A stretch of DNA of 57,317 bases from Silvanigrellaceae bacterium (GCA_947457515.1 CANGWC010000002.1:1-57317); one strand, 5' to 3'. Counted from the first letter of the stretch, positions 30,178 through 44,839 are shown. Numbers and translations are program-made. Notes: generated by a model from the sequence alone, not told the origin.

Positions 30178-31482
30178 TTATTGATAACAATTATTTTTAT
30201 CAAATTCGATACATCTCAAATTTTTATCAGGTATATAACAAGAAGATGTTGCATCGGGTGGGGGAGCTGAGCCTACATATCGGGCCAATTCTCTTGTCTG
30301 ACCAAAACCCCCTCCCATTGTTTGAATCTCTACTGTTTTACCAGTTAAAATCATAGACTCATTTTTACCTTTGTAATCATATACTTTATCTCTTTTCACA
30401 ACATCAAAGCAATACTGATATTCATCAGGTATATTTGGAACAATAGCCATTCTTGCTGCAGGATTTCCATATTGATCTTTCGCTTGAGCAGCGCCTGCTG
30501 GAGCAATTTTAAGATTATATTGACCATATGTAATCATATCTTTCGCATCATTAAAACACTTATTTTTATCATCTTCGGCACATTGAATGTTTTTATTCTC
30601 AACAAAACAAGCAGTAGATTCATCTATGAATATTGGATTACCTTTATCATCAACACCTTTTCCGTCAGGACGAGCTTTTCTAGCTCTTTCATCTCTTTGC
30701 CCTCCTCCAGGGTTTCTTTCTTCACGAGTAGACGCATAAACGAAATCTCCTGCCTTAAAAGTTGCTACTTTTGAACCATCTCTATAGCAAAAAGCATAGT
30801 TAGAATAAGCAGGATCTCTAGGTTTTACGACAAATTTTGCTAAAGCTGTTCCGTTAGCTTGTGCTTGAGCAACAACACCAGCTGTTTTAGTTGCAGTCAT
30901 ATTACATTGAATCATTAATCTATCAACGTAACAAGTTCTCGTTTTTGTATTAGAAGAATCTGTAAAAAAAGCTGCTTTTACATAGGGAACATTAAAAGTA
31001 CCCTCTTTAAAAATACTCAAAGTTGTGCCAATAGGAATATCTTCTCCACTAGCACTGTTTCCCTCTTTTCTTTCATGACATAAAGCTAGATCATCTCCTG
31101 ATTGTGCAACTGTAACCTTACCTTTAGTGCATGTTGGAGTATCTTTATCAGTTAACCACTGAAATGTATCACCACCGCTAGATGCCGAAGTAGAAGCTGC
31201 ACTAGGACTAGGTGACGACGGCGAAGCTGCACTAGAACTAGGTGACGACGGCGAAGCTGGACTGGGTGATAACGAAGAGCTAGATGGAGCTGCTGAGTTT
31301 GAAGAAGTAGTTGTAGCAGCGGCAACAGCAGCAGCGGATAATGCCGATGCACCAAGTGTTGCTGCCGTTGGATCTGCAACTGAAGCAGGTGCCGAATCTA
31401 ACGCATCTGCAGCAACAGGTGCTACAGCTGGCCTACAACCCATGACTAAAAAAACGATAAACCACGCAAGATTTGATTTCAT
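30178..31482 (-). CDS. lipoprotein with A/S/P-rich linker and three Cys-motif modules
   Basis: Lipobox FLVMGC. About 80-aa Ala/Ser/Pro low-complexity tract. Thrice-repeated motif: TCYVDRLMIQC / ACFVENKNIQC..C / SCYIPDKNLRC..C. Confidence 0.6.
   Translation of the reverse strand: MKSNLAWFIVFLVMGCRPAVAPVAADALDSAPASVADPTAATLGASALSAAAVAAATTTSSNSAAPSSSSLSPSPASPSSPSSSAASPSSPSPSAASTSASSGGDTFQWLTDKDTPTCTKGKVTVAQSGDDLALCHERKEGNSASGEDIPIGTTLSIFKEGTFNVPYVKAAFFTDSSNTKTRTCYVDRLMIQCNMTATKTAGVVAQAQANGTALAKFVVKPRDPAYSNYAFCYRDGSKVATFKAGDFVYASTREERNPGGGQRDERARKARPDGKGVDDKGNPIFIDESTACFVENKNIQCAEDDKNKCFNDAKDMITYGQYNLKIAPAGAAQAKDQYGNPAARMAIVPNIPDEYQYCFDVVKRDKVYDYKGKNESMILTGKTVEIQTMGGGFGQTRELARYVGSAPPPDATSSCYIPDKNLRCIEFDKNNCYQ
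31193..31280. repeat. 30-bp tandem repeat, about 2.9 copies, inside the A/S/P linker coding region
   Basis: gaagctgcactaggactaggtgacgacggc / gaagctgcactagaactaggtgacgacggc / gaagctggactgggtgataacgaagagc. In frame (10 aa per unit). Locally GC-rich. Confidence 0.8.
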
Positions 31483-31579: not shown

Positions 31580-33598
31580 TTATGGGGTGATGATTAAGTC
31601 ATCACAGGTCATAATTCCATTATTAGCCGTTAATTTTTTAATGTCAGCGTCTGGCATTCTCAGACACCCTCTTGTAATGGCTCGATCTGCTACAGTTCCT
31701 AAGAAAAGTTTTTTCTCATCTACGGTAGGGGCGGTTCCATGAAGTCCATATAATAAATCCTGCCATCCACACCAAGCACTTCCTAATGGATTGTCGCTGC
31801 TACAAGCTGTTTCACACCGTGTACTCCCAGGAGTCGAGTCACACCAATCAGGACACGGAGTACATTTTCCTTCAAATATAAATGCTTTGTCTTTACTTGT
31901 GGTAGGCGTAGGAGTGTTTTGTTTCTTGCCATCCTTTCCAATTTTGTCCTTATCATCCCTTCCAATGGCTACAGGAAATCTTCCTAACTCTTTAGTTCCA
32001 CCAACTTCATAGACGATACAAGAAGCAGTTGTTAACGAACATGCAACAAGTCTTTTATTTGCACCTGTTGCACAATTAGCAGGACCTGGTCTAAGCGGTA
32101 AATCATTTAGAAATGAGACTCTGTTACCCCCACCGTTACCTTTTTGTGATGGTTGATTAGGAAAAGAAGGGTCCTCTTTAATAGGACTCCCTTTTAGATT
32201 AGGATTTAAATAAGGATCCTCAGGATTTAAAGGAACGATATCAGTACCATCCCCATAATTACCATTATTCATATTATTACCATTGTTATAGGTATTCTGT
32301 CCGTAATCTGAATTTTGAGCAGCAATGCTTGTTCCAGGAATAAGATTTCCATTACCATCAACGTAACTATCATTTTGTCCAGAATTCATATTTCCATTCA
32401 CAGTGCCTGTATTCTGGCCAGGAATCACACTCCCATTCACACCTGTATTTGAATTGCCTGGGGTGACTGAATTAAATCCTATATCACTTTGATTTCCAGA
32501 AGCCTGATTGGCAGTTCCTAAAGTTTCAGGTGAAGGTTGTGAAGTCATATTTGGATTAAAAGATGGAGTGATTGCACCTGATCCATACAGACTTTGAACA
32601 GTTTGGCCTGCTGTTACTCTTCCCACTGCTTGTGCAATTAAAGCCCCAGAAATCGTAGGTGGCCACTGTAAAGGATTGACTTGTTTAAGAACCTGATCGT
32701 AATTTTGTCCACCATTATTCAGTGCATCTAGCGGATTTAATGTTTCACGTACTGGATTTCCACTGATATTATTATTACCATTGACCCCATTTACTGTATT
32801 ATTAGCTGTTGCAGATACACTACCATTAACGTTACTTCCAGTATTAAGTTGTTCTCCTAAAGGATTTCCACTGATGCCATTATTACCACTCACACCATTC
32901 ACAGTTCCGTTAGCACTTAATCCTGTATTACTTCCAGCTACGTTTCCGTTAGCACCTGTGATTCCATTGACTGTGTTATTGATGGAGTTATTAAGACCAC
33001 CCGTCACATTGTTAACTGTATTATTAGCTATCGCTCCAGCAGTTCCAGCGATATTTCCATTATTGAGTTGTTCCCCATTAGGATTTCCACTGATAAAAGG
33101 AATTTTACCATTAACAAGTCCCGTAAAAGAGATCCCATCAGCTCCATAGGTCACTCCTAACGTAGGAACTTTAGAACCCTTATTCCCTAAAACCATCGCC
33201 ACAAATTGGACACTATTTCCATACATTTGAGCTTTCTTAACACCCACATCGGAATACGCTCCATGTATAGCAGAGTCAGGAACCATGGGAAGACCTATTC
33301 CATTTGCACTGTCTGAGACTGATCCTGTAACGAGTTTTGAAGAACTTGATCCTGTACCTGTTCCTGATTTAGCTCCTGTAGAAGCTGCTGAACCTGAAGA
33401 TGATCCGCTGGTTGGCGCTGGAGTATCTGCAGGAACCCCTCCTCCTTTAGTCACATCTAAGTTTCGAGCAAGAAGGCTTTCCTTAGAGACTAAAGCTCTA
33501 TTAATACCTTTACTGAGATCTTCAGTATTATAGGCTTTAAATTTTGTTCTCTTACATAAAAACAGTGAGAAGAGACAGAGAATATGGACAAACTTCAT
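31580..33598 (-). CDS. secreted repeat protein with C-terminal YkuD-type L,D-transpeptidase domain
   Basis: Signal peptide MKFVHILCLFSLFLC. Long N/G/S/T-rich region with three ISGNP.GEQLN-type repeats. C-terminal YGLHGT...ITRGCLRMPDADIKKL matches the YkuD catalytic HG[ST]...[SH]xGC[IVL]R[ML] signature. Confidence 0.7.
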   Translation of the reverse strand: MKFVHILCLFSLFLCKRTKFKAYNTEDLSKGINRALVSKESLLARNLDVTKGGGVPADTPAPTSGSSSGSAASTGAKSGTGTGSSSSKLVTGSVSDSANGIGLPMVPDSAIHGAYSDVGVKKAQMYGNSVQFVAMVLGNKGSKVPTLGVTYGADGISFTGLVNGKIPFISGNPNGEQLNNGNIAGTAGAIANNTVNNVTGGLNNSINNTVNGITGANGNVAGSNTGLSANGTVNGVSGNNGISGNPLGEQLNTGSNVNGSVSATANNTVNGVNGNNNISGNPVRETLNPLDALNNGGQNYDQVLKQVNPLQWPPTISGALIAQAVGRVTAGQTVQSLYGSGAITPSFNPNMTSQPSPETLGTANQASGNQSDIGFNSVTPGNSNTGVNGSVIPGQNTGTVNGNMNSGQNDSYVDGNGNLIPGTSIAAQNSDYGQNTYNNGNNMNNGNYGDGTDIVPLNPEDPYLNPNLKGSPIKEDPSFPNQPSQKGNGGGNRVSFLNDLPLRPGPANCATGANKRLVACSLTTASCIVYEVGGTKELGRFPVAIGRDDKDKIGKDGKKQNTPTPTTSKDKAFIFEGKCTPCPDWCDSTPGSTRCETACSSDNPLGSAWCGWQDLLYGLHGTAPTVDEKKLFLGTVADRAITRGCLRMPDADIKKLTANNGIMTCDDLIITP

Positions 33599-33636: not shown

Positions 33637-34848
33637 TTATTTTGGAGGGAGCTGCAGATTTTGCATTCCGTCTATATATTCTACGTTAGGACAACAGAGA
33701 GCATAAGGAGCTGAATCTACTTGCATGTCTTGGTAGACTTTATCGCTTTCAGGATCACTTTGATAGCCTCCCCAGTCATTATCGTAACACACGCTTATGG
33801 ATCCATGACTGAGATTTCTCCAAACTTTACCACTTCTGGCTAATCCTCGTGCGTTTAATGTTTCATCTGCGTCAATTCCCGTAGAGAGTCCGACTCTATT
33901 CAGAAAAGCTCCAATTCCTTGTTGGGTTCTATCTTCGTAAGTTCCATTAATATTTAAATTCACTATAATAGGAGAGGCTTTCCCCGTATGGGTATGAGGT
34001 ACAAAGTTAGGCATCTGACCCCAAGGCATAGGAATATAGACCGGAGGCCCAGGACTTGTGAGTCTCCCTCTCCCCACACCTTGATTCATTCCTTGCCAAG
34101 ATGTCTTAGGGAGTTTTCTTGTTTTAGAGACTCCTGCTTTACCATTTGTTTTGCACTCTCCTCCTGCAACCATCAGAGTCATTGTTCCCTGATCTTGTCT
34201 GTAAAGACCTCCCTTTGGCTGGCAGATTGCATGAACATCTCCCCTCTCTGTTCCAGATGTTCTCTTATCGAAAACTTTAACTTCCTGACAGCAAGCAGCC
34301 CTACCATTAAAAGTTCCTCCAAAAATAGGATAATCTTTACTCGGGCAAGGTGATTCATTACTTTCATTAAAGTCCCTAGATTTGTCGTAACTTAAATTCT
34401 GAGAACAGATATATCCAAGACCATCAAAAAGATCCTTCCACACATTTTGAGCTGTTTCTTTAGGACTGACTATTTTTCTTCGATATTGAATGAGTAATTC
34501 TCCATAAGGTTTAGGATCCGTTTTAGGTTTCTGTTGACAGAGAATTTGAAACTCCCATTGTGAATTTTGAAGAGCTCCTTCTAGATTTGTCCCTAATCGA
34601 TTACGTAAAACATATTTTTGATTTGTACATGTATGGTATACCGATGACTTATCTTTAATTTTAAGTGTTTGATAACAATCTATTTCATCTCTTAATGTCC
34701 ACCTCATTAAAGAAAGATCCACTTGTTGAGAGATCTGAGTTTTGCCTCTAAGCATTTTTTGAGCGATTAAAACAGCAACTGATATCAATAAAACACCTAT
34801 AGCGGATGCTACGAGAAGTTCTATTAATGAAAATCCTTTTTTACTCAT
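33637..34848 (-). CDS. prepilin-like protein with large 12-Cys C-terminal domain (paralog 1)
   Basis: Start taken at MSKKGFSLIELLVASAIGVLL (class III signal, G/FxxxE), with ATGA overlap to the upstream gene. Motifs DCYQTL, ACC, PHTHTG, NDW, CCP shared with paralogs. Confidence 0.7.
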   Translation of the reverse strand: MSKKGFSLIELLVASAIGVLLISVAVLIAQKMLRGKTQISQQVDLSLMRWTLRDEIDCYQTLKIKDKSSVYHTCTNQKYVLRNRLGTNLEGALQNSQWEFQILCQQKPKTDPKPYGELLIQYRRKIVSPKETAQNVWKDLFDGLGYICSQNLSYDKSRDFNESNESPCPSKDYPIFGGTFNGRAACCQEVKVFDKRTSGTERGDVHAICQPKGGLYRQDQGTMTLMVAGGECKTNGKAGVSKTRKLPKTSWQGMNQGVGRGRLTSPGPPVYIPMPWGQMPNFVPHTHTGKASPIIVNLNINGTYEDRTQQGIGAFLNRVGLSTGIDADETLNARGLARSGKVWRNLSHGSISVCYDNDWGGYQSDPESDKVYQDMQVDSAPYALCCPNVEYIDGMQNLQLPPK

Positions 34849-35882
34849 GGAATATCCTGATGTATTTTCATGGGACAACAGAGTCCCCAAGCAACAGAAC
34901 CATAAGAATCTATCCAATCATTTGTTTGGCATTGAACATTCCAACTGTTTACAACTTTTCTTTGAGGTTCAATGATAGGAGCTGTCTTATGCATAAACCC
35001 GCCTAGGGTTGTTGTTTTATCTTCCATGTTCCCTGGTGTTTGTCCGCCTCCTACAAAAGCTACAGGAAAACTTCCAGAATGCTTATGTGGCATAAACCCT
35101 TCTGGCATAGGCGTTGAAGATGGACCTCCAGTAGCTGTGGTAATGGCTCCTGCATCAATGGATGTTTTAAAAAGATTTCGATTATATTTTTTGCCTTTAA
35201 TCATAAGCTTAACACCATCCATATTCAAAGCTCCCTGAGCATTCAAGAATTGAGGATAATCAGGACCCGGAGTACACCATCCACCACCATGAATCAGATA
35301 CTCATTTGGATTACAAGATAGAGTTGAAGATCCTTCTGCAGCTTGAATAGTAGGAATACGACAACATTTAGGAGTCCGGTCTCCTTCACTCCCTGCATAA
35401 ATATTATAACGAGTGTCCTGAGTGTCTTTTAAAGGACATACCTGAGTGAAATAAGATGAACAAAGTTTACTTTTACCAAAGAAAATATCTACGCTTTTAC
35501 CTTGTCCAAAGTATTTTTTAATCACTGTATCCATAGACTGAGTTTTAACAATTAAAGCATCTTTACTTCTTTCCACTGTAATTTCCCAGTTACCTAAACA
35601 CTGTTTTGTTTTATTTTGAGCACAGGGCTTAGTTAAAGTTCTACCACCTCGTTTCTTTAAAATAAGAGTTTTAGAACCTGCTGGAATATTAGATAATGTT
35701 CTATAACAATCAACATAATTTTCTACGGTTTGGCGAATCGCTAATACAGTTTGAAGATGCTCTAATTTAGCACTGCTTTGAAATGTTCTTCCTATTAAAG
35801 TGTATGCGGCCGCTGCAACGGAAACAGATACAAATCCAATGACAACCACTTGAACAAGAACAGATCCTTTGTTTTGTTTCAT
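34845..35882 (-). CDS. prepilin-like protein paralog 2, degenerate N-terminus lacking Phe1/Glu5
   Basis: MKQNKGSVLVQVVVIGFVSV has Q in place of E5. Same 12-Cys pattern: DCYRTL, KCC, PHKHSG, NDW, LCCP. ATGA overlaps on both sides. Confidence 0.65.
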   Translation of the reverse strand: MKQNKGSVLVQVVVIGFVSVSVAAAAYTLIGRTFQSSAKLEHLQTVLAIRQTVENYVDCYRTLSNIPAGSKTLILKKRGGRTLTKPCAQNKTKQCLGNWEITVERSKDALIVKTQSMDTVIKKYFGQGKSVDIFFGKSKLCSSYFTQVCPLKDTQDTRYNIYAGSEGDRTPKCCRIPTIQAAEGSSTLSCNPNEYLIHGGGWCTPGPDYPQFLNAQGALNMDGVKLMIKGKKYNRNLFKTSIDAGAITTATGGPSSTPMPEGFMPHKHSGSFPVAFVGGGQTPGNMEDKTTTLGGFMHKTAPIIEPQRKVVNSWNVQCQTNDWIDSYGSVAWGLCCPMKIHQDIP

Positions 35883-36952
35883 ACTTTAGGACAACAGACT
35901 GCCCAGGAACGTATTCCGTATGCAGCCCTCCAATCATTCCTCATGCACATACCTGTCATACCTCCTAAAGTCATTTGTTTAGAAGAATTTGAAACATAAA
36001 TAAACGGTACACTCGCCGCTAAAAACCCTCCTTTTTTCTGACGTTTATTTGCATCATAAATTTCAGAATACTTATATTTACCTCTGAGTAACCCTCCCCC
36101 CGTTGCCATATGTATATGCCCTGGAACTGAAGGAAGAGGAGGGAGACTCATGATATCAACGCTACCTCTCACCTTAGTGCTCACATTTTCTCTGATTTGA
36201 GGAATCGTAAAAATCTTACCTAACTGAGGATAATCCCGAGAAGATGAGCAAAAAACAGAACCCGCAGCCATATATTCATGATCTCTGCATTGAGCTTTCA
36301 CAACACCTTCATTAGATTTTTTACCTGCGGGAAAACTCTTTTCTGAATCTACAAAACGACAACACTGAACTCCTGCAGTGTCATAGATACCGTAAATATT
36401 ATAAACCAGATCTGTTTCCGTCTTAGGCACATCACAGGTATTTAAAGGCTTAGACAAAAACTCATGACAAAAAAGACTCACTCCCTCAAAAAGATCTTCT
36501 GCTTTTGTTTTAAGGTTTCTTTGTTTTTCTATGAGCTCTCTTTTGATGACTAAAGATTCAACATTAGGAGAACCTCTTTGATAATTACATTCACCCCAAA
36601 CACTCCATGGCTGCATTTCTGTTGGTTTACCTTTAACAACAGGAAACAACTCTCTTCCAAAACGATCTCTTAAAACAATCTTTTTTTTACACCGTGAGGG
36701 TTCTATAAAATGTCTTTCACCGTTTTTAATTTCTAAAGTCTGACGACAATCCATATTTTCTAAAACAATTTTTTTCAGGACTTCTTGTTGAGAAGCAATG
36801 TCGTAAAGTCTTCTCGCCGGGAATGACTTCCCTAAAAGCATAAACCCTGCCATGGAGATGCCCCCTAGAAGGACAGCTGCCACCATAATTTCGACTAGAG
36901 AGAAGCCATTGTTTTTGTTATGTAAAAATTTTTTTTGTCTTAAAGATAACAT
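35879..36952 (-). CDS. prepilin-like protein with large 12-Cys C-terminal domain (paralog 3)
   Basis: Start taken at MLSLRQKKFLHNKNNGFSLVEIMVAAVLLGG (ATG 36950..36952, AAGGA 6 nt upstream). Motifs DCRQTL, QCC, GHIHMATG, NDW, VCCP. Confidence 0.7.
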   Translation of the reverse strand: MLSLRQKKFLHNKNNGFSLVEIMVAAVLLGGISMAGFMLLGKSFPARRLYDIASQQEVLKKIVLENMDCRQTLEIKNGERHFIEPSRCKKKIVLRDRFGRELFPVVKGKPTEMQPWSVWGECNYQRGSPNVESLVIKRELIEKQRNLKTKAEDLFEGVSLFCHEFLSKPLNTCDVPKTETDLVYNIYGIYDTAGVQCCRFVDSEKSFPAGKKSNEGVVKAQCRDHEYMAAGSVFCSSSRDYPQLGKIFTIPQIRENVSTKVRGSVDIMSLPPLPSVPGHIHMATGGGLLRGKYKYSEIYDANKRQKKGGFLAASVPFIYVSNSSKQMTLGGMTGMCMRNDWRAAYGIRSWAVCCPKV

Positions 36953-37027
36953 TTTTTTCCTTATTTGAGTGAAAAATAAACCTTTTCTTACCGACGAGTA
37001 TATAAAGTTCATAATTTAGGTGTATTA

Positions 37028-39010
37028 ATGAAATTAGCTCTACTGATATTTATTTTAATAGGTTGTGCCCAGAACAACAAATCTGTGGTTCAAACGCTTG
37101 ACAATTTAACTCGTGCTCCAGATAAAGACATCCAATGGAATCAATGCTCTGGAACAAATACAACGGGTGAAGCTGATTATAAAATTGATGTTACGGGCAT
37201 TCCTGAAGCTGATAGAACAACGGCTAAAGCTGAAGTGATAAAAGCTCTGAGTGCAGTGCCTGAAAGAAAACTTAAAAAGAATTTTTTTAAAATCGGTAAA
37301 ATTAAAATACTTAGCCCAACAGATGTTGAGAAAAAATGTGCTGCAGGTCTCAGTGATGCAACCTTACAATCCATTACAGAACAAGGACAACAAAGTGGTC
37401 CTAGATTCTGTTGGCAACTTGAAGATGATTCAACCATTACAGCTAACCTCTCCAGCGATCCTCAAGATATTCATCACCATACAGTAAAAATGTTTGGTTA
37501 TCTTATGACACAGATCTATGTGAAATATGCAGAGAATTTCCCTCCATCGGAAAGACTCTTTTGGTTAGCAGAGAAATTCAAAGAAGGTAGAAGACTTGTA
37601 TTCCTTGGATTTATTGAAGATCTCGAAACCAAAAAAGCTAAAAGTCGTCTTAATGATGTAGAGAAAAAATACTATAATGATTTTAAAACAGCTTTAAAAA
37701 CTTCCACCTGTACAGATCTAGAAGATCTTGAGAATCTGATTTACGCTGAATCTTTTGATTCTTATTACTGTACAACTAAAACCAAAAACTCTATGAAAAC
37801 AAACTTTTCATACGTATACAATATTTTTGATAGACAACAACAAGGAATTACAGATGATACATCTACAAACTTCTCTGTTAATCTTATAAAGTCTAAATAC
37901 AAACCCGTTTTAAAATCTTGTATTTTAAGCAAACAACAAGAAGCTGCTCAAGCTAAAGCTATCGAACTTGCTAAACAAGAAGCTGCCAATGCTGATAAAG
38001 TCATGGCTAATAATACCCCCACATCTCCCAGCATTCCTTTACCCACAAGCCAGACTAATTCAGCTTTAAAAACAACAAATAATCTACCTACAAACATGAT
38101 GAGCACTAATCCTGTTGCTCAAACATATACCCAAACATCTGCACAAGTAGCAGCAGCAAACGCAACCGCACAACAAACTGCAGCGGCAAAAGCAGCAACT
38201 GCTCAACAACAAGCTGCAGCGAATAATAATCCTTTAGCCAGTATTCAAGGCATTTTGAGTAACCCTTTAGTTTCAACTGTTCTTAAGTCAACAGGATTAG
38301 ATAAACAATTAGGAGCTATTACTGGTCTCCTAAGTGGTAATCCATCGGCAATCACTTCTGCTCTTCCTGGTATTTTGGGTACATCTAATCCTACGAGTGT
38401 GGCAAATAATTTACCTTTCACTCCATTCAATCCCAATAGTGGAATCACTACAGCAACTCAGAATCTTGGAGGGCTGACGACAGCTACAGTAGATCCTAGT
38501 AAACTTAGATTCAGTTTTGGAAATACTCCTACAAGTTTAACCACTGGTGGCTTTAATCCAAGCACTTCTATAAATCCAAGCAACTTATCCTTAAATACAC
38601 CAACCTCAGTACAGGGATTAACAACAACTCCTCTTAATCCCAATGCTATCAATCCAACTTCTTTAAATCCTTCTAATAATGCTTTAAGTTTTTCAAAAAC
38701 AAATCCTACTACATTTACAAATCCCACAACACCTAACTCTTCTGTATTTACTGATCCCTCTTCTTTAAATACTAATTCATTTAACCCTACTACTTTTGAT
38801 CCTGCTCAATTTGATGCTGTGAATGCTAGTTTTGCAGATTTTAGTCTAGGCGACATAGGTTTCGATCCTACAGAAATGAATGATATATTTAACTTTGTAG
38901 ACAATGGAACACTCAGTTTTGATACACCATTTAGTCAAGATCTTGCTGCTGATCTTGCCTTTGATCCAGCTAAAGATGCCAGTAGTTCTTTTAACCCAGA
39001 TAACTTTTAA
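37028..39010 (+). CDS. large lipoprotein with Q/A/N/T/S/P low-complexity C-terminal half
   Basis: Lipobox FILIGC. About 300-aa globular N-terminal part, then AAQ-rich tract and long N/P/T/S tract. Acidic D/F-rich C-terminus. SD AGGTG upstream. Confidence 0.6.
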   Translation: MKLALLIFILIGCAQNNKSVVQTLDNLTRAPDKDIQWNQCSGTNTTGEADYKIDVTGIPEADRTTAKAEVIKALSAVPERKLKKNFFKIGKIKILSPTDVEKKCAAGLSDATLQSITEQGQQSGPRFCWQLEDDSTITANLSSDPQDIHHHTVKMFGYLMTQIYVKYAENFPPSERLFWLAEKFKEGRRLVFLGFIEDLETKKAKSRLNDVEKKYYNDFKTALKTSTCTDLEDLENLIYAESFDSYYCTTKTKNSMKTNFSYVYNIFDRQQQGITDDTSTNFSVNLIKSKYKPVLKSCILSKQQEAAQAKAIELAKQEAANADKVMANNTPTSPSIPLPTSQTNSALKTTNNLPTNMMSTNPVAQTYTQTSAQVAAANATAQQTAAAKAATAQQQAAANNNPLASIQGILSNPLVSTVLKSTGLDKQLGAITGLLSGNPSAITSALPGILGTSNPTSVANNLPFTPFNPNSGITTATQNLGGLTTATVDPSKLRFSFGNTPTSLTTGGFNPSTSINPSNLSLNTPTSVQGLTTTPLNPNAINPTSLNPSNNALSFSKTNPTTFTNPTTPNSSVFTDPSSLNTNSFNPTTFDPAQFDAVNASFADFSLGDIGFDPTEMNDIFNFVDNGTLSFDTPFSQDLAADLAFDPAKDASSSFNPDNF

Positions 39011-39014
39011 ATAT

Positions 39015-39962
39015 TTAGTTTAAAAGTGTTTTATAATTCAAAGCGGCTTGCATGAGTTTCTTTAGGATTTTAGAAACTCCTTTAGGCTCATTATACTCTA
39101 AGAAGTAAATGGTTTTATCAAGATCCATCAGATAGTCTTGAGAAGTTTTGATTTCATCCACAAGATTGAGAGGAAGAGCTTCTCTGGCTAACCAAAAGTC
39201 TCCATTAGCAACAACTGATAGATCCATTTGAGGTCTGAATTCAGAAACAAATGACTTAAAAAGATGATGTATCCTATCTAATTGTTCTTGAAATTGTTCT
39301 TTTTTATCTTCTGTCACTTCTCCTAATAAGGAAAGAGTTCTTTTATTTTTACCAGCGGTTAATTCAAAGACATCAATATTTTTATCTTGAAGAAATCTTC
39401 TAAAGTTGGGGACTTGGCTAACCACTCCAATGGAACCCACAATAGCAAAAGGTGCTGCTACGATATGATGAGCAACGCTTGCCATAAGGTATCCACCACT
39501 GGCAGCTATCTTATCAATGCATACGGTTAGCTTACTGATCCTCTCTCTTAATCTAAGCATTTCAGAAGCTGCTAAACCATAAGAAGAAACAGCTCCTCCA
39601 GGACTTTCTATTTTAATAATGACTTCATCTTCTTTTTGAAGATAAGGCTGAAGAAGAGTGATGGCATGGGATAATGACCCTACAGAGGATCCTTGAACGT
39701 CCCCAGAGAATTCTAAATAGAATGCTCTTTGAGAAGTGTTATCATCACCTTTCTTCAGAAGAGATTTTTTGTCTTTCTTAAAACTTTTGACTTTATCTTT
39801 CCAGCCTTTTTCATCCATTAAAGGTCTAAAGATCTTGAGTCGTTCTTCAGAAAGACTCTGGTTCCAATTTTTAAGTGTCGTAGATGAAGCGGGTTTATTC
39901 TTCTGAATAATAAGTAAACTTATAAGAATAAAAATAATAAATAATAAAAATATTGAAATCAT
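39015..39962 (-). CDS. sohB: S49 family peptidase (SohB / SppA-like)
   Basis: N-terminal TM. ESPGGAVSSYG and IAASGGYLMAS (catalytic Ser context), VGSIGVV. Confidence 0.8.
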   Translation of the reverse strand: MISIFLLFIIFILISLLIIQKNKPASSTTLKNWNQSLSEERLKIFRPLMDEKGWKDKVKSFKKDKKSLLKKGDDNTSQRAFYLEFSGDVQGSSVGSLSHAITLLQPYLQKEDEVIIKIESPGGAVSSYGLAASEMLRLRERISKLTVCIDKIAASGGYLMASVAHHIVAAPFAIVGSIGVVSQVPNFRRFLQDKNIDVFELTAGKNKRTLSLLGEVTEDKKEQFQEQLDRIHHLFKSFVSEFRPQMDLSVVANGDFWLAREALPLNLVDEIKTSQDYLMDLDKTIYFLEYNEPKGVSKILKKLMQAALNYKTLLN

Positions 39963-41713
39963 GGATTTCCTTTCTCTTGGTTGATCTCTTGTAACTTTTC
40001 ATCAAGCTGTTGAGCAGTGATGCGACTTCTGAAAAGAAACGTAGGTTTATCTAAATTTTTAACATCATGGGGATGATAAATTGCCACAGCAGGTAACCCA
40101 GCTATATCTAATAGCTTAGCGACTTTTTGGCTCTGTGTATCATTATCTGAAAAATCTATTTTCAGTAAGATATATTTTTCTTTGATCTGATTCATCAGAT
40201 CTTCTTGATTCCAAACTGTTTCATCCATTTCTAAACACGCAGAACACCAATCAGCCCAAGAATCTATCAATAGACCTTTACCCTCTACAAGAGCTGCTTT
40301 CTGGGCTTCTTCTAATCGACTCAGCCATTTTGATGAAGTCTTTTGTGTGATCTGAACTTCTTTAGGGTAACTGTAAGTGACCTTTAAAGTTAGAAATAAT
40401 GACAAAGGAATCAGTGCTGATAAATGTAAAACAGATCCTAAATAGGGCTTTTTAAAGAAAATGCCTCCTAAAATCCATAGAGTAAAACAGGCTACTATTA
40501 ATTCCCAAGGTGGAACTGCATAAATCATACGAGGAAGATAAGACTTTAGAAAATAAGCAGATAATGCAAACATAAAACTTGCAAAAACCCATTTAGATAA
40601 AGCAATGAGATAAGGAATTTTAGGAAGTTTTGTAACTTTTTGGCCAAGGTAACCTAAAAAAAGATAAGGTAACGCCAATCCCATGGAAAAAGGAATCATC
40701 AAAATCAATCCATATAAGGGATCATGTGTTTGACCTATAAGAATTAGAATCACTCCTAAAATAGGCCCCATACACGGAGCTGCTACTAATCCAGACACAC
40801 TTCCCATAAGAAAGACTCCCAGTAAAGGAAATTTATGAGAAAGTGGTACCTTATAACCTAATTGTGTGAGGAAACTCAGATCTCCTATGCCTAACATAGC
40901 CAATGCAAGAAGAAAGAATAAGACTCCTATTCCGATTTGAAATCCTGCATTCTGGAAAAGACTTCCAAACAAACTTCCTGTTAATCCTGCGATGAGTCCT
41001 AATAAAGAGTATGTGACGACTATCCCTAAACAGTAAGAAAAAGGTGCTTTTTTATTATTTTTAGCCCATTTGGAAACAATATTTAGAGTGATGGGAATCA
41101 TAGGATAAACACAGGGAGTCAGATTAGTGAGAAGTCCTCCTAGGAAAAGAGCTGGATATAAAGATGGATTATGAAGATTATCTTGAACATAGGCTAATGT
41201 TTGTTGTTCAAAACCTTCAATCCCTTGATTAATAACTGAGACATCAGGTTCTTTTTCTATTTTTGGTTTGATAGGGATTTGAACTTCTTTTTGTAGAAAA
41301 TCTGTGACTTTATTCTGTGGAATTCTTAAAGGTTTGGTTTCCTGAGTGATCACTTTATTTAAGACAAGAGATCTTTTAGCAGGCATCAAACAGATCCCAT
41401 CTGCACAGGCTTGATATTCGATTTCCAGTTCTCCTTTTAAAGGGACGGAAAATGTAAATTCTGTGGAAGAAAGAAACATTTTCTCTTTCTTCTTTGTGAG
41501 AGTATCGAAGACCTCTTGTGATTTAGGAGAAGATTTGAATTTGATCTTATGGGGGAAGACTCCTGGAGACTTATATACGAATTTTAAATTTTTTTCATAA
41601 ATTTTAAATCCTTGCTGTGCTTCGAAAAGGATCTTAAGTTGATATTCAGTACTTTTTTGTATACGAAATTGTATGACATCTTCGGGTTTAATTTTAGTTT
41701 GAGAATAGTTCAT
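39959..41713 (-). CDS. dsbD: thiol:disulfide interchange protein DsbD
   Basis: N-terminal alpha domain (CADGIC), central polytopic domain with CVYPMIP and APCMGPIL, C-terminal thioredoxin WADWCSAC. Confidence 0.88.
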   Translation of the reverse strand: MNYSQTKIKPEDVIQFRIQKSTEYQLKILFEAQQGFKIYEKNLKFVYKSPGVFPHKIKFKSSPKSQEVFDTLTKKKEKMFLSSTEFTFSVPLKGELEIEYQACADGICLMPAKRSLVLNKVITQETKPLRIPQNKVTDFLQKEVQIPIKPKIEKEPDVSVINQGIEGFEQQTLAYVQDNLHNPSLYPALFLGGLLTNLTPCVYPMIPITLNIVSKWAKNNKKAPFSYCLGIVVTYSLLGLIAGLTGSLFGSLFQNAGFQIGIGVLFFLLALAMLGIGDLSFLTQLGYKVPLSHKFPLLGVFLMGSVSGLVAAPCMGPILGVILILIGQTHDPLYGLILMIPFSMGLALPYLFLGYLGQKVTKLPKIPYLIALSKWVFASFMFALSAYFLKSYLPRMIYAVPPWELIVACFTLWILGGIFFKKPYLGSVLHLSALIPLSLFLTLKVTYSYPKEVQITQKTSSKWLSRLEEAQKAALVEGKGLLIDSWADWCSACLEMDETVWNQEDLMNQIKEKYILLKIDFSDNDTQSQKVAKLLDIAGLPAVAIYHPHDVKNLDKPTFLFRSRITAQQLDEKLQEINQEKGNP

Positions 41714-41735: not shown

Positions 41736-43343
41736 ATGAATAAATACAGATCTGTTCTCATTGTCGTTCTTGATGGCGTAGGTTGGGAACCTCAAAGAAC
41801 TCAAGGCAATGCTCTTTTAAAAGCACATATCCCTTGTCTTAATCGCCTTATGGCATCTTCCCTATCCACAACTCTTCTTGCCCATGGAAAAGCCGTAGGC
41901 ATGCCTTCTAATAGCGATATGGGCAATAGTGAAGTGGGACATAATGTCATAGGTGCTGGAAGAATTTTTTCTCAAGGTGCACTTCTTGTTAATCAAGCTT
42001 TAGAATCAGGATCCCTATTCTCTGGATCCACCTGGCAAAAGATCGCTCATCGTCCTGAACTGATCTCAGGATCTCAGTGTCTTCATATTGGTGGATTACT
42101 TTCCGATGGTAATGTTCACAGTCATCAAAATCATCTTTTTGCGTTATTAAAAGAAGCGAAAAAAATAGGCATCAAAAAAATTCGTCTTCATATGCTTTTA
42201 GATGGAAGAGATGTTTCTCCTAAAAGTGCTTTAATTTATGCAGAGACTTTAGAATCAGTTCTCAATGATCTTAAGGGACCTCAGTTTGATTATAAAATAG
42301 CCTCCGGAGGAGGAAGATCATCGGTCACTATGGATAGATATGGTGCTGACTGGCCTATGGTTCAAAGAGGTTATCAGGCTCATGTTTTAGGACAAGGTCC
42401 TGCATTTCCCTCTTTAAAAGCAGCTATTGAAAACTTCTATTCTCAAGGAATAGAGCAAGATCAATTGATCTCAGAATTTGTGATTGGTGATTATTCAAAA
42501 GAAGGCGTTCAGGATGGTGATAGTTTCATTTTCTTTAACTTTAGAGGAGATAGAGCCATTGAATTTACACAGGCTCTAACCCAAAAAGATTTTCCTCATT
42601 TTGAAAGAATCCGACTTCCCAAAGTGATCTATGCTGGAATGATGCAATATGATGGAGATCTTAAAATCCCCGAAAACTATCTTGTCTCTCCTCCCGTAAT
42701 TGAAGACACACTCTCTTCTTTATTATCGGAAAAAGGAATCACACAGTTTGCCTGTAGTGAAACTCAAAAATTTGGGCATGTGACTTATTTTTGGAATGGG
42801 AATCATAGTCAAAGTTTAGATAAAGAAACTTGGGTAGAAATCCCATCTGACGATCATCCTTTTCAAGATAGACCTTGGATGAAATGTGCTGAGATCTGTG
42901 ATGCAACTTTAAAATTCATGACAACAGCAAAAGAACCTTTTGTTGCAAGAATTAACTTTGCCAATGGAGATATGGTGGGACATACCGGCAATCTTGATGC
43001 TACAATCACAGCATTAGATTGTATGGATCTTCAACTACAAAGGATCTTAATGACCGCTGAAAAAACAAATACCACAGTGATTGTAACAGCGGATCATGGA
43101 AACGCTGATCATATGTGGGAACTTGATTCTAAAGGCATGCCTGTTTTAAATAAACAAAGCATACCCATTCAGAAAACAAGCCACAGTTTATCTCCGGTAC
43201 CTTTTATTGTTTATAATCCAAAAGCACCTATGCAGATCGTAAATACATCAGGAAGTTTAGGAAACATTGCTTCCACAACTCTTGAAATTTTTGGTCTCAA
43301 TTCACCTTCATTTTATCTTCCATCTTTGGTTAAATATGTTTAA
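41736..43343 (+). CDS. gpmI: 2,3-bisphosphoglycerate-independent phosphoglycerate mutase
   Basis: LIVVLDGVGW...MGNSEVGHNVIGAGR...ADHGNAD. Confidence 0.93.
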   Translation: MNKYRSVLIVVLDGVGWEPQRTQGNALLKAHIPCLNRLMASSLSTTLLAHGKAVGMPSNSDMGNSEVGHNVIGAGRIFSQGALLVNQALESGSLFSGSTWQKIAHRPELISGSQCLHIGGLLSDGNVHSHQNHLFALLKEAKKIGIKKIRLHMLLDGRDVSPKSALIYAETLESVLNDLKGPQFDYKIASGGGRSSVTMDRYGADWPMVQRGYQAHVLGQGPAFPSLKAAIENFYSQGIEQDQLISEFVIGDYSKEGVQDGDSFIFFNFRGDRAIEFTQALTQKDFPHFERIRLPKVIYAGMMQYDGDLKIPENYLVSPPVIEDTLSSLLSEKGITQFACSETQKFGHVTYFWNGNHSQSLDKETWVEIPSDDHPFQDRPWMKCAEICDATLKFMTTAKEPFVARINFANGDMVGHTGNLDATITALDCMDLQLQRILMTAEKTNTTVIVTADHGNADHMWELDSKGMPVLNKQSIPIQKTSHSLSPVPFIVYNPKAPMQIVNTSGSLGNIASTTLEIFGLNSPSFYLPSLVKYV

Positions 43344-44259
43344 AAATCTCTTTAAAAAACCAACTCCTCCTCCTCAAGTCATTGCTTCTTTACCGACTGA
43401 AAGCAAAGAAGAAGTTCCTCTATCTCATCTAGAGCAAGCCATGATGAATAGCATCCGAAAAGACACTCCTGAATCAAGAAAGACTGTGTATCAAGAATTG
43501 ATTTTCTCTGATCTGTTTCTTTGTCTTGCGGACACACCTTCAGAATCATCTCCCGATGAATCCATTAACGTAGCAATTCTTAAAAACAGCCAAGACACTT
43601 CATTTTGTGCAGCATTCACCAGTGAAGCCGCTATTAGAAGATGGAGACCTGAAGGTGGACATTTTATCTCTGTAAGAGGTCAAGATATTTTTAAAATGCT
43701 TGAAAAGAGTCCTTCTCAAGTTCTTGTGATTAATCCTGCTAGTGCTCCATTTATCATCCTCAATAAGCTTGATATTAAACAGCTAGCCTTAGGAGTGATC
43801 CCTGCAGCTCCCATTAACCCTGTCCATATGGCAACAGAAGAATCTCAAGCAGCTCCATCTGAGCCTCAAGTACAAGTTTCTTTTCCTCCCGATGCTTTCA
43901 CTTCTGAGCAAAAAGAAATCATCAAAACTTACCTCTTAGAAAGATCAGATATTGAAGCGGGAGCCTTAGGCGCTCTTCTTCCTCCCAATGTCACTCCAGA
44001 AGCTGGAAATGAAGAAGCCTCTTGGATCAGAGCTTTATTTGTCAGAATCGAAGCAAGAGAGATCAATCCTCAAGAGTTACAAGTTCTTTGTACTCAAATG
44101 AAAACAGATATCACTGAAAATCATAAAATATTCAAAGAGACCCAATTTGAAGTGGGCATTATGCCTGATGCTAAGTTTTGGGAAGAACTTCATAAGAATA
44201 ATGTTGTTCTTATAGATAAGATGGCAGGCCAGGAGGGACTCGAACCCCCAACAAGCTGA
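43336..44259 (+). CDS. SseB-family-like protein
   Basis: Start taken at MFKNLFKK (internal Met of ORF 43267..). Segment FCAAFTSEAAIRRW...ISVRGQDIFKML...VLVINPASAPFIIL resembles the SseB N-terminal domain. The last about 38 nt run antisense through tRNA-Trp. Confidence 0.5.
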   Translation: MFKNLFKKPTPPPQVIASLPTESKEEVPLSHLEQAMMNSIRKDTPESRKTVYQELIFSDLFLCLADTPSESSPDESINVAILKNSQDTSFCAAFTSEAAIRRWRPEGGHFISVRGQDIFKMLEKSPSQVLVINPASAPFIILNKLDIKQLALGVIPAAPINPVHMATEESQAAPSEPQVQVSFPPDAFTSEQKEIIKTYLLERSDIEAGALGALLPPNVTPEAGNEEASWIRALFVRIEAREINPQELQVLCTQMKTDITENHKIFKETQFEVGIMPDAKFWEELHKNNVVLIDKMAGQEGLEPPTS

Positions 44260-44297
44260 TTTGGAATCAGCCGCTCTACCATTGGAGCTACTGGCCT
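44222..44297 (-). tRNA. trnW: tRNA-Trp (anticodon CCA), CCA end encoded
   Basis: Hand-folded from the minus strand: AGGCCAG TA GCTC CAATGGTA GAGC G GCTGA TTCCAAA TCAGC TTGTT GGGGG TTCGAGT CCCTC CTGGCCT G CCA. Cloverleaf complete with one G-U in the T stem. Confidence 0.88.
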
Positions 44298-44350
44298 TCT
44301 TATGGCACCATACCGTGGATACAGACAAGAATCAAAACATAGGAGTAAAA

Positions 44351-44839
44351 ATGGGTCTTTTTAAATTAAAATATGAAGGTGAAGAAGAAAATCTCATCTA
44401 TGCGAGTCCTTACTCATCTGCTTTTGATCTGATTTCTCAAGTAGATATCACCTTAGCACCCGGTAAATGGGATAAAGTCCCCACAGGTCTTTTCATTATT
44501 GATCATGAGCCTTTATTCCATCTTCAGACATCTCAAACGCATCTTTTCCCACAGAGTCATCTCCCTGTGTATGGAGAGATCCAAGTTCGTCCGAGAAGTG
44601 GGTTAGCTTATAAATATGGAATTACAGTTCTCAATTCACCCAGTACCATCGATGCTGATTACAGAGGTGAGATTCAAGTAATTCTTATTAATCATGGATC
44701 TGAAGATTTTGTTATTGAAAAAGGATTTCGCATTGCTCAAGCAGTTTGCTGTCTGGTGGTTCCCCACGCACCTTATCGGGATCATCATAATCCTCTCACA
44801 GAAAGAGGAACTAAGGGGTTTGGATCTTCTGGGATTTAA
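44351..44839 (+). CDS. dut: dUTP diphosphatase
   Basis: Start at MGLFKL with AGGAG SD. Motifs RPRSGLAYKYGI, IDADYRGEI, RIAQ, RGTKGFGSSG. The upstream part of the ORF-track frame overlaps the tRNA and is discarded. Confidence 0.88.
   Translation: MGLFKLKYEGEEENLIYASPYSSAFDLISQVDITLAPGKWDKVPTGLFIIDHEPLFHLQTSQTHLFPQSHLPVYGEIQVRPRSGLAYKYGITVLNSPSTIDADYRGEIQVILINHGSEDFVIEKGFRIAQAVCCLVVPHAPYRDHHNPLTERGTKGFGSSGI

What the first reader, a model, noticed from the sequence alone, without database searches (positions are those of the whole stretch)
33637..37012. Triad of translationally coupled prepilin-like genes with an unrecognised 12-cysteine, HxH-containing C-terminal domain
Three consecutive minus-strand genes are joined by ATGA start/stop overlaps at 35879..35882 and 34845..34848. 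Two begin with a canonical class III (type IV pilin) signal: KKGFSLIELLVASAIG and NNGFSLVEIMVAAVLLG. The middle one has a degenerate version (KGSVLVQVVVIG) with Gln where the conserved Glu5 should be and Ser for Phe1. That pattern is seen in tip-forming minor pseudopilins such as GspK. Their mature parts are 320-400 aa, far larger than ordinary pilins. All three carry 12 Cys in the same order: C, C, C, C, C, CC, C, C, C, CC. Shared motifs are DC[YR][QR]TL near the helix, Y-[NP]-I-[YF] then CC, an HxH element (PHTHTG / PHKHSG / GHIHMATG), C..NDW, and a C-terminal CCP. I recognise no characterised pilin, adhesin or pseudopilin globular domain with this signature. No assembly ATPase, platform protein, secretin or prepilin peptidase is in the window. 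This looks like a self-contained, disulfide-rich fibre-tip or surface module, possibly metal-binding via HxH, of unknown function.
Basis: partly seen in the sequence, partly recalled or inferred. Interest (0 to 1): 0.72.

Follow-up and report, generated by a model that had tools for sequence, protein, structure and literature searches.

The report
Conserved trio of cysteine-rich pilin-like genes
Three overlapping genes in an uncultured Silvanigrellales-like bacterium encode an undescribed family of large, 12-cysteine type IV pilin-like proteins that recur as a fixed three-gene set in related bacteria and most likely form the tip of a pilus-like filament, with a head domain that matches no known structure.

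Summary
Three minus-strand genes sit at A 35879..36952, B 34845..35882 and C 33637..34848. They are joined by ATGA overlaps. Each has 12 Cys in the same order and one HxH. A and C pass the prepilin N-terminal HMMs; B does not.

The three are paralogs of an uncharacterised family. An exhaustive search of 1.84 billion representative proteins found 153 hits. The globular part has no Pfam, NCBIfam, PDB-sequence or Foldseek match.

The new result is comparative. The three-gene set is the conserved unit: nine loci carry three tandem members and share no other neighbour with the window. In all four long-form triads whose sequence I could read, the order A-B-C is kept. Gly(-1) is invariant. A and C keep Glu5 and the middle B never does. 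This is the logic of the GspK-type cap subunit in GspI/J/K and PilI/J/K tip complexes.

The best reading is a heterotrimeric minor-pilin-like tip or initiation complex with a novel disulfide-rich head, probably an adhesin, assembled by machinery encoded elsewhere.

The HxH metal idea is weak. Only the first His is general, and the loop is modelled at low confidence. No assembly machinery lies in the window or beside any triad, so filament assembly is inferred, not shown. I rate it a new variant of a known kind, of moderate interest.

The parts
35879..36952 (-). Gene A (357 aa from the ATG at 36952; the longest ORF reaches 37012). Prepilin-like, with a 16-aa basic leader, G|FSLVE, 12 Cys and C-terminal CCPKV.
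   Evidence: A-type orthologues occupy the first position in L001, L025 and L049.
34845..35882 (-). Gene B (345 aa). A paralog with a degenerate class III signal, MKQNKG|SVLVQ: Gly(-1) is kept, Ser is at +1 and Gln at +5. It has 12 Cys. Proposed cap subunit.
   Evidence: AlphaFold model, pLDDT 77.4, helix 5-56 then beta-rich.
33637..34848 (-). Gene C (403 aa). Prepilin-like, MSKKG|FSLIE, 12 Cys, the largest head. C-type orthologues carry PHxH, and some carry an insertion of about 450 aa.
   Evidence: AlphaFold model, pLDDT 68.9.
35879..35882 (-). ATGA stop/start overlap between A and B.
34845..34848 (-). ATGA stop/start overlap between B and C.
36833..36952 (-). A: leader plus hydrophobic alpha1-N segment (class III signal).
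35793..35882 (-). B: leader plus hydrophobic segment, lacking Glu5.
34759..34848 (-). C: leader plus hydrophobic alpha1-N segment (class III signal).
36110..36118 (-). A: HIH in the long-form insert.
35079..35087 (-). B: HKH in the long-form insert (pLDDT<50).
33988..33996 (-). C: HTH, part of the PHxH motif found in every C-type orthologue examined (pLDDT<50).

Best explanation
A, B and C are three paralogous type IV pilin-like proteins, minor-pilin or pseudopilin class, of an undescribed family found so far in Oligoflexia (Bdellovibrionota) MAGs and in metagenome contigs of unknown taxon.

Proposed mechanism, step by step:
1. ATGA coupling would favour roughly equal expression of the three (inferred).
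2. Each protein is inserted in the inner membrane by its N-terminal hydrophobic helix and cut after the invariant Gly(-1) by a prepilin peptidase encoded elsewhere (inferred).
3. The periplasmic part folds into a two-lobed, beta-rich head. Its 12 conserved Cys would allow up to six disulfides (inferred from conservation; no coordinates were available to check pairings).
4. The three assemble 1:1:1 into a heterotrimer that caps and primes a type IV filament, either a pilus or a T2SS-like pseudopilus, made of a major pilin encoded elsewhere (inferred).
5. B lacks Glu5 and sits at the very top, because the top subunit has no partner N-terminus to neutralise. This is as in GspK of the GspI/J/K complex.
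6. A and C keep Glu5 and dock below B.
7. The heads are surface-exposed and act as the binding end. C is the most expandable subunit.

Shown here: the genes, the paralogy, the class III signals, the conserved triad and its order, the Glu5 pattern, the predicted helix-plus-beta architecture, and the lack of any known domain.

Inferred: cleavage, disulfide formation, trimer formation, tip location and adhesion.
For: Pilin nature:
- PF07963 and TIGR02532 are above cutoff in A and C. They match 11 of 42 close and 61 of 103 distant family members.
- The family profile hits only the alpha1 helix of solved type IV pilins: geopilin 3e-4, TcpA 8e-3, PilA.
- AlphaFold gives an N-terminal helix of about 50 residues followed by beta-sheets.
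- Gly(-1) is invariant in 22 aligned members.

The triad as a functional unit:
- Nine loci carry three tandem members: the window, its 94%-identical relative, L001, L002, L010, L021, L025, L049 and L053.
- Two truncated contigs are consistent with this.
- No flanking gene is shared between the window and the other loci.

Subunit roles:
- An NJ tree groups the long-form proteins by position rather than by locus. A-type and C-type form clean clades and B-type clusters less cleanly, always in the order A-B-C.
- The +5 residue is Glu in all A and all C. In B it is Gln, Gln, Met and Val. The short-form L002 triad shows the same Glu/Leu/Glu pattern.

Binding role:
- Distant relatives keep the N-terminal module but carry a Gly_rich_2 domain (P0088) or a phage tail collar domain (P0133). 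A marginal H-type lectin hit is also seen in one member (E 3.9e-4).
- C-type orthologues tolerate an insertion of about 450 aa.

Background:
- Tip initiation complexes built on a core trimer of distinct minor pilins are described in PMC13533445.
- Five Silvanigrellaceae genomes are reported to contain pilus-assembly genes (PMC7386786).
- RpoB places the window nearest Silvanigrellales.
Against: - No prepilin peptidase, ATPase, platform protein, secretin, major pilin or PilY1-like gene lies in the window or beside any of the other triads.
- There is no sequence or structural similarity to GspI/J/K, PilV/W/X or TcpB/CofB beyond the N-terminus.
- Some family triads depart from the pattern. In Oligoflexus L021 all three members lack Glu5. 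In L010 the first member, not the middle one, lacks it. Many members also lack Phe+1.
- Short-form triads cluster by locus, so their three-gene state may have arisen more than once, or they may be homogenised.
- The heads are about 280-340 residues, large for minor pilins that must pass a secretin as a trimer.
- No heterotrimer model could be run.
Confidence: 0.55

Rival explanations
1. The proteins are inner-membrane-anchored periplasmic proteins, not filament subunits. The pilin-like N-terminus serves only as an uncleaved or cleaved transmembrane anchor. The three disulfide-rich ectodomains form a periplasmic or envelope complex, for example a structural or sensing module.
For: B and many family members lack Phe+1 and Glu5. 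A whole Oligoflexus triad has Ser/Ser/Thr at +5. No assembly genes are adjacent in any locus. The window neighbours are envelope proteins: a YkuD-like protein, DsbD, SppA, MltG and lipoproteins.
Against: Gly(-1) is invariant. Short basic leaders and canonical G|F[ST]L[IV]E signals score above curated HMM cutoffs in A and C. A plain anchor would not need Glu5 to be kept selectively at positions 1 and 3 and lost at position 2 across loci with 37-61% GC. The neighbours are not conserved with the triad.
Confidence: 0.25
2. The three proteins are the shaft subunits themselves. They would copolymerise into a thick heteropolymeric filament rather than capping a filament made of another major pilin.
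For: No major pilin is encoded nearby. Tight 1:1:1 translational coupling. Two of the three keep Glu5, which polymerising subunits need.
Against: Heads of 280-340 residues are several times larger than those of solved major pilins listed (138-208 aa whole chains). One subunit consistently lacks Glu5, which fits a terminal position and not a repeating one. The family is low-copy, with three per locus.
Confidence: 0.1
3. The shared HxH plus Cys array forms a metal-binding (Zn or Cu) or redox-active extracytoplasmic domain, and that chemistry is the primary function.
For: All three window proteins have one HxH. PHxH is present in all C-type orthologues examined. DsbD lies 3 kb away. The weak top Foldseek hits include the Cys/His-rich C-terminal domain of PCSK9 (probability 0.44, TM 0.15).
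Against: The second His is replaced by Phe in A-type orthologues and is absent from two of the three B-type orthologues. The whole insert is missing from the short form of the family. The loop is modelled at pLDDT<50. DsbD is not linked to other triads. The PCSK9 match is not significant.
Confidence: 0.1

Closest known systems
GspI-GspJ-GspK pseudopilus tip complex of type II secretion, and the homologous PilI/J/K (PilV/W/X) core minor-pilin trimer of type IVa pili
   Same: Three different pilin-like proteins are encoded side by side. One of them lacks the otherwise conserved Glu5. All have Gly(-1), a short basic leader and a long hydrophobic N-terminal helix. The presumed 1:1:1 trimer would prime and cap a filament (PMC13533445; the Glu5-less state of GspK is from my own knowledge of the Korotkov and Hol 2008 structure).
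   Different: There is no sequence or fold similarity in the globular parts. The three subunits are paralogs of each other with the same 12-Cys head, whereas GspI, J and K have three unlike heads. The Glu5-less subunit is not the largest. The triad is not embedded in a T2SS or T4P operon and has no GspH/FimU-type or PilY1-type partner nearby.
Type IVb tip minor pilins TcpB and CofB (large minor pilins that trimerise at the pilus tip)
   Same: A pilin-like N-terminal module is followed by large beta-rich C-terminal domains. A trimeric tip with a binding function is the expected role. One distant family member gives a marginal hit to an H-type lectin domain (E 3.9e-4), the domain class I recall at the CofB C-terminus (a lead from memory, not a test).
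   Different: TcpB and CofB are single genes that form homotrimers within T4b operons. Here there are three distinct genes. The Foldseek match of model C to TcpB (7w64_A) has E=5.7 and TM 0.17, which is not significant. The leaders are short, of type IVa/T2SS style.
Generic prepilin-type N-terminal cleavage/methylation proteins (PF07963 / TIGR02532), which is how public sources name the few annotated members
   Same: The N-terminal motif is above cutoff in A and C. Source names are 'prepilin-type N-terminal cleavage/methylation domain-containing protein', 'pseudopilin PulG' or 'hypothetical protein'.
   Different: That label covers only about 25 residues. The remaining 300-370 residues have no family assignment.

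Membership tests
Type IV pilin-like proteins (class III signal, PF07963/TIGR02532) | Short basic leader ending in Gly(-1), followed by Phe/Met(+1), Glu(+5) and about 20 hydrophobic residues | tested here: met
   A and C are above the curated cutoffs. Gly(-1) is invariant in 22 family members. B keeps Gly(-1) and the hydrophobic stretch but has Ser+1 and Gln+5 and matches no HMM.
Type IV pilin-like proteins (class III signal, PF07963/TIGR02532) | Lollipop architecture: an N-terminal alpha-helix of about 50 residues packed on a beta-sheet | tested here: met
   AlphaFold gives B helix 5-56 and C helix 6-55 at pLDDT around 90 or above, then beta strands. The family profile aligns to alpha1 of solved pilins. 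The packing of helix on sheet could not be inspected, because no coordinates were returned.
Type IV pilin-like proteins (class III signal, PF07963/TIGR02532) | Cleavage and N-methylation by a prepilin peptidase, and an assembly ATPase and platform protein in the genome | not testable with these tools
   Only 57 kb of the genome is available and it contains none of these genes. Cultured Silvanigrellaceae are reported to have pilus-assembly genes (PMC7386786).
GspI/J/K - PilI/J/K tip initiation complex | Three distinct minor pilins encoded together | tested here: met
   ATGA-coupled triad, conserved as three tandem genes in nine loci.
GspI/J/K - PilI/J/K tip initiation complex | One subunit (the GspK type) lacks Glu5 while the others keep it | tested here: met
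   The middle subunit has Gln/Gln/Met/Val in the four long-form triads and Leu in L002, while the flanking subunits have Glu. Exceptions are L010 (first subunit) and L021 (all three).
GspI/J/K - PilI/J/K tip initiation complex | Sequence homology of the globular domains to the GspI, GspJ, GspK, PilV, PilW or PilX families | tested here: not met
   There are only weak N-terminal hits to the gspI, GspJ and PilV models, far below cutoff. There is no Pfam hit. The PDB profile search at E<=10 returns pilin helices only.
GspI/J/K - PilI/J/K tip initiation complex | Structural similarity to solved tip minor pilins | tested here: not met
   Foldseek against PDB with models of B and C gives best E values of 0.75 and 1.6, and no pseudopilin or minor pilin except TcpB at E=5.7.
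GspI/J/K - PilI/J/K tip initiation complex | Location in a T2SS or T4P gene cluster, with GspH/FimU-type or PilY1-type partners | tested here: not met
   No such genes lie within 10 kb in the window or in the other loci.
GspI/J/K - PilI/J/K tip initiation complex | Formation of a 1:1:1 heterotrimer at the filament tip | not testable with these tools
   No multimer prediction or experiment is available.
TcpB/CofB-type large tip minor pilins | A single large minor pilin with beta-rich C-terminal domains forming a homotrimer, encoded in a T4b operon | tested here: not met
   There are three different genes, no T4b operon, and the Foldseek match to 7w64_A is not significant.

The most novel reading that the evidence does not exclude
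The triad is a previously unrecognised class of heterotrimeric filament tip. Three paralogous, disulfide-stapled pilin-head proteins of a new fold would together replace the usual unlike minor pilins plus PilY1-type adhesin. In this reading the tip was invented within Oligoflexia and its relatives and is used for attachment to hosts, prey or particles. The C subunit would be an expandable adhesin platform, carrying an insertion of up to about 450 aa.
Probability: 0.3. Interest if true: 0.7.

Novelty: new variant of a known kind. Interest (0 to 1): 0.55.

Why it matters
How type IV filaments are primed and what sits on their tips is an active question. The known solutions are GspI/J/K, PilI/J/K plus PilY1, TcpB/CofB homotrimers and TadG/CpaL.

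A conserved set of three paralogous pilin-like proteins, with one Glu5-less member and a head that matches no solved fold, would be a further solution. It occurs in a poorly studied group, Oligoflexia, which includes animal-associated and possibly predatory bacteria.

It also defines a protein family of about 150 representative clusters that current databases label only 'hypothetical' or 'prepilin-type N-terminal domain'. That gives a concrete target for structure determination and for a new family model.

It does not overturn anything. If the proteins turn out to be ordinary minor pilins with an odd head, the gain is mainly better annotation.

Tried and rejected
- Word-indexed homologue searches were nearly blind to the family. 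Query C found only its 94% orthologue. The 42-sequence profile returned two proteins out of 8000 candidates.
- The search for related loci on genome contigs with the 4-sequence alignment found nothing.
- I then used a hand-made degenerate DNA pattern for D[LIV]FxGx[ST]xFCxE[YF]. It gave 21 stretches in GTDB genomes, of which three, all Oligoflexales MAGs, are true. It gave 23 stretches in JGI metagenomes, of which one is true and was already known.
- Foldseek against PDB (twice) and BFVD found nothing significant. I do not count the weak PCSK9 Cys/His-rich domain hits or the TcpB hit as evidence.
- Walking beyond the window through the 98-kb sister contig to look for pil or gsp genes failed. 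Only the window's own contig was returned, and the first ORF is not on record.
- The taxon of the other long-form loci could not be obtained, because cluster members carry no organism names.
- I rejected functional linkage to DsbD, SppA, the YkuD-like gene or the flanking lipoproteins. None of these accompanies the triad elsewhere.
- I rejected HxH as a family-wide motif.
- The promoter and terminator scans were uninformative, with counts at or below the shuffled expectation.
Full report
**1. What is in the sequence**

The region 33637..37012 holds three consecutive minus-strand ORFs. The stop and start codons overlap as ATGA at 35882..35879 and at 34848..34845.

The longest ORF of the first gene begins at 37012, only 16 nt from the divergent gene at 37028. 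The ATG at 36952 is preceded by AAGGA and gives the 357-aa form seen in P0003 from the exhaustive search. I therefore use these coordinates:
- A = 35879..36952 (357 aa)
- B = 34845..35882 (345 aa)
- C = 33637..34848 (403 aa)

The N-termini are:
- A: MLSLRQKKFLHNKNNG|FSLVEIMVAAVLLG
- B: MKQNKG|SVLVQVVVIG
- C: MSKKG|FSLIELLVASAIG

Pfam N_methyl and TIGR02532 are above their curated cutoffs for A and C. B matches nothing. No other Pfam or NCBIfam model matches any of the three beyond the N-terminal segment.

Each protein has exactly 12 Cys in the order C,C,C,C,C,CC,C,C,C,CC and a single HxH. The three are paralogs at 20-27% identity. Blastp E-values range from 3e-20 to 1e-8. They stay significant without the N-terminal helix, from 3e-15 to 1e-4.

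**2. Where it sits**

The window has 36.7% GC. It is a chromosomal core region containing:
- the ribosomal-protein, SecY and RpoA operon, then rpoC/rpoB, the L10, L1 and L11 genes, and rho
- mltG, then the triad
- an SppA-type peptidase, DsbD, phosphoglycerate mutase, a tRNA, a dUTPase-domain gene and ValRS

RpoB is 74% identical to a Silvanigrellales MAG. It is 72% identical to Pigmentibacter and to Spirobacillus cienkowskii, and about 62% identical to Oligoflexales. The organism is therefore an uncultured, fairly deep Silvanigrellales-like member of Oligoflexia (Bdellovibrionota).

Even its housekeeping proteins have only 2-4 sequences within 90% identity in 15 billion proteins. None of the ORFs of at least 150 aa that I scanned is an assembly ATPase, platform protein, secretin or prepilin peptidase. 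A and C are the only canonical class III signals in the window.

**3. The family**

Word-indexed searches found only a 94% orthologue in a syntenic 37-kb contig. An exhaustive HMMER search of 1.84 billion representative proteins, using a profile of the three paralogs, found:
- 153 proteins at E<=1e-3
- 37 proteins at E<=1e-10

The family comes in three forms:
- A short form of 250-300 aa. It has the helix, a D-C-x-x-T-L motif right after it, a first beta unit, then [DE][LIV]FxGxSxFCxE[YF], CCR, E[YW]xxGGGxC, and a C-terminal CCP[KR]. Most members have 12 Cys.
- A long form, to which the window triad belongs. It carries an extra 80-110 residues before a GGFL motif, and the HxH lies in this insert.
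- A giant form of about 800 aa (P0019, P0022, P0033). This is the C type with an insertion of about 450 residues.

None of 42 close members matches any Pfam or NCBIfam model outside the N-terminus. Public names are 'hypothetical protein', 'prepilin-type N-terminal cleavage/methylation domain-containing protein' or 'pseudopilin PulG'.

Among 103 more distant members, 61 match N_methyl. Single proteins carry a Gly_rich_2 domain (P0088) or a phage tail collar domain (P0133) after the shared N-terminal module, and one gives a marginal H-type lectin hit at E 3.9e-4. The head is therefore an exchangeable and probably ligand-binding part.

**4. The triad is the conserved unit**

Gene neighbourhoods were recovered for several members.

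Three family genes in tandem occur in nine loci:
- the window
- its 94% relative, sizes 377/345/403 aa as called
- L001, 331/366 aa plus a third gene interrupted by a scaffold gap
- L002, 313/346/287 aa
- L025, 314/341/816 aa
- L049, 344/346/783 aa
- two Oligoflexus MAG contigs, L010 and L021
- L053, at a contig edge

Two short contigs are consistent with this: an A-B pair followed by the contig end, and a B fragment followed by a giant C.

Two members appear alone: P0020, and L019 within its 8 kb.

An all-against-all comparison of flanking ORFs shows no gene shared between the window and the other loci apart from the triad. The GC content of these loci ranges from 48% to 61%, against 36.7% in the window. 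The arrangement has therefore survived deep divergence.

**5. Division of labour among the three**

Best blastp hits and an NJ tree group the long-form proteins by position rather than by locus. A-type and C-type form clean clades. B-type clusters less cleanly. The order is always A-B-C. Short-form triads cluster by locus, which indicates separate duplications or homogenisation.

Aligning all members to the family HMM shows an invariant Gly(-1). The residue at +5 in each triad is:

| Triad | Position 1 | Position 2 | Position 3 |
|---|---|---|---|
| Window (long form) | Glu | Gln | Glu |
| L001 (long form) | Glu | Gln | Glu |
| L025 (long form) | Glu | Met | Glu |
| L049 (long form) | Glu | Val | Glu |
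| L002 (short form) | Glu | Leu | Glu |
| L010 (short form) | Leu | Glu | Glu |
| L021 (short form) | Ser | Ser | Thr |

In type IV filaments, Glu5 pairs with the N-terminal amine of a neighbouring subunit. The one subunit known to dispense with it is the topmost one, GspK in the GspI/J/K complex (established knowledge, Korotkov and Hol 2008; not retrieved here). A core trimer of distinct minor pilins that primes assembly is the current model for T4P, T2SS and Tad tips (PMC13533445).

A conserved pattern of two Glu5 subunits and one Glu5-less subunit, in a translationally coupled three-gene unit, is the strongest argument that these proteins work as a capping and priming trimer. Position-specific conservation of this kind would be unexpected if the N-termini were plain membrane anchors.

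**6. Structure**

AlphaFold2 with the family alignment gave two models:
- B: mean pLDDT 77.4, with 131 residues at 90 or above. It has helix 5-56, a small beta unit (94-116), and a second beta-rich lobe (161-204 and 288-337) that contains both CC pairs.
- C: mean pLDDT 68.9, with the same layout.

The long-form insert, including HxH, is below pLDDT 50 in both models.

Foldseek found nothing at E<=0.001 in PDB, with best values of 0.75 for B and 1.6 for C. It also found nothing in BFVD. No pseudopilin or minor pilin appears in the hit lists, except TcpB at E=5.7.

A family profile search against all PDB sequences matches only the alpha1 helix of type IV pilins.

The proteins are therefore pilin-like at the N-terminus and, as far as these tools can see, new in the head. 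Six disulfides are inferred only from the near-invariance of the 12 Cys.

**7. The HxH motif**

PHxH is present in every C-type protein examined:
- window C, P0001, L025_3, L049_3, P0033 and P0126
- the third gene of L001, read as RPHVHQ

A-type orthologues have PHF[FM]. B-type orthologues have SHAHS, THVD or VHTD. The short form lacks the whole insert. Only the first His is general. A shared HxH metal site is not supported, although a C-specific role cannot be excluded.

**8. Mechanism proposed, and its rivals**

Most likely (about 0.55): a 1:1:1 heterotrimer of processed A, B and C caps and primes a type IV filament whose peptidase, motor and major pilin are encoded elsewhere. B sits on top. 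The disulfide-rich heads serve as the exposed binding surface.

Rivals:
- A membrane-anchored periplasmic complex that never enters a filament (about 0.25). This is favoured by the degenerate signals in parts of the family and by the lack of any neighbouring machinery.
- A heteropolymeric shaft (about 0.1).
- A metal or redox domain as the main function (about 0.1).

The rival estimates are rated independently and are not mutually exclusive. The metal or redox idea in particular could coexist with any of the others.

What is shown: the genes, the paralogy, the signals, the conserved order, the Glu5 pattern, the predicted architecture, and the absence of known domains.

What is inferred: processing, disulfides, trimerisation, tip location and adhesion.

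**9. Comparison and novelty**

Functionally the triad resembles GspI/J/K and PilI/J/K, and in head size it resembles TcpB and CofB. It fails the membership tests for those families on sequence, on fold and on operon context.

It differs in kind in one respect. The three subunits are paralogs with the same head, whereas GspI, J and K have three unlike heads.

It is best described as a new variant of a known kind: type IV filament minor-pilin sets built from an undescribed protein family. Interest is moderate at 0.55. The comparative pattern is clean, the fold appears new and the lineage is little studied. The function rests on inference, and the general principle of a trimeric minor-pilin tip is already known.

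Noticed in passing
window 31580..33598 (-): A 672-aa gene starts 38 nt downstream of C, with its own AAGGAA site and no terminator-like hairpin between them, so it may be co-transcribed with the triad. The protein has a signal peptide, a long Asn/Gly/Ser-rich low-complexity region and a Cys-containing C-terminal YkuD (L,D-transpeptidase)-like domain just below the Pfam cutoff (22.9 versus 23.4 bits). It accompanies the triad only in the 94% relative, not in other loci.
   Followed up: partly
window 30178..31482 (-): A 434-aa predicted lipoprotein with an Ala/Ser/Pro-rich linker and three similar Cys-containing modules (…CYVDRLMIQCN…, …CFVENKNIQCAEDDKNKCFND…, …CYIPDKNLRCIEFDKNNCYQ). It has no family match.
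   Followed up: no
window 37028..39010 (+): A 660-aa predicted lipoprotein encoded divergently from gene A. It has a globular N-terminal half and a Thr/Asn/Pro/Ser-rich C-terminal half and no family match. It is conserved in position only in the close relative (653 aa).
   Followed up: partly
window 39015..41713 (-): An SppA-type S49 peptidase and a full-length DsbD (DsbD_N, transmembrane and thioredoxin domains) lie 2-5 kb from three proteins that may need up to 18 disulfides between them. The linkage is not seen at other triads, so it is probably coincidental.
   Followed up: yes
window 44225..44297 (-): A tRNA gene (Rfam, 61.9 bits) is overlapped by the mechanically longest TTG-start ORFs 43267..44259 and 44261..44839. 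The true starts of the SseB-like and dUTPase genes are therefore probably further downstream.
   Followed up: no
window 48360..50600 (-): Three overlapping genes of 160, 253 and 351 aa have no Pfam match. They lie directly downstream, on the same strand, of a chalcone/stilbene-synthase-like type III PKS and a GT9 heptosyltransferase. This may be an uncharacterised lipid or envelope biosynthesis cluster.
   Followed up: no
L025 9965..12415, L049 10001..12352, L051 477..2867: C-type orthologues of about 800 aa carry an insertion of about 450 residues (Gly/Ala/Val-rich and predicted helical by eye) between the first beta unit and the Cys-rich lobe. In L025 and L049 they are followed by a weakly similar gene of 250-310 aa and a PF12831 FAD oxidoreductase.
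   Followed up: partly
L021 4094..6942 (Oligoflexus sp. MAG JACMPP01): In this short-form triad all three members keep Gly(-1) but have Ser/Ser/Thr at +5 and no Phe at +1 (G|DALVS, G|NAILS, G|SSLVT). This is a departure from the Glu5 rule that the tip-complex model does not explain.
   Followed up: partly
P0088, P0133 (distant family members): These proteins share the N-terminal helix plus DCxxTL module but end in a Gly_rich_2 domain (P0088, E 1.6e-14) or a phage tail collar domain (P0133, E 4e-6). Another member gives a marginal H-type lectin hit. This suggests a modular pilin-with-exchangeable-head superfamily.
   Followed up: partly
whole window: The lineage is very rare in public data. RpoB, RpoC, Rho, ValRS and other core proteins have only 2-4 sequences at 90% identity or more among about 15 billion proteins. 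The nearest named RpoB is only 74% identical.
   Followed up: yes
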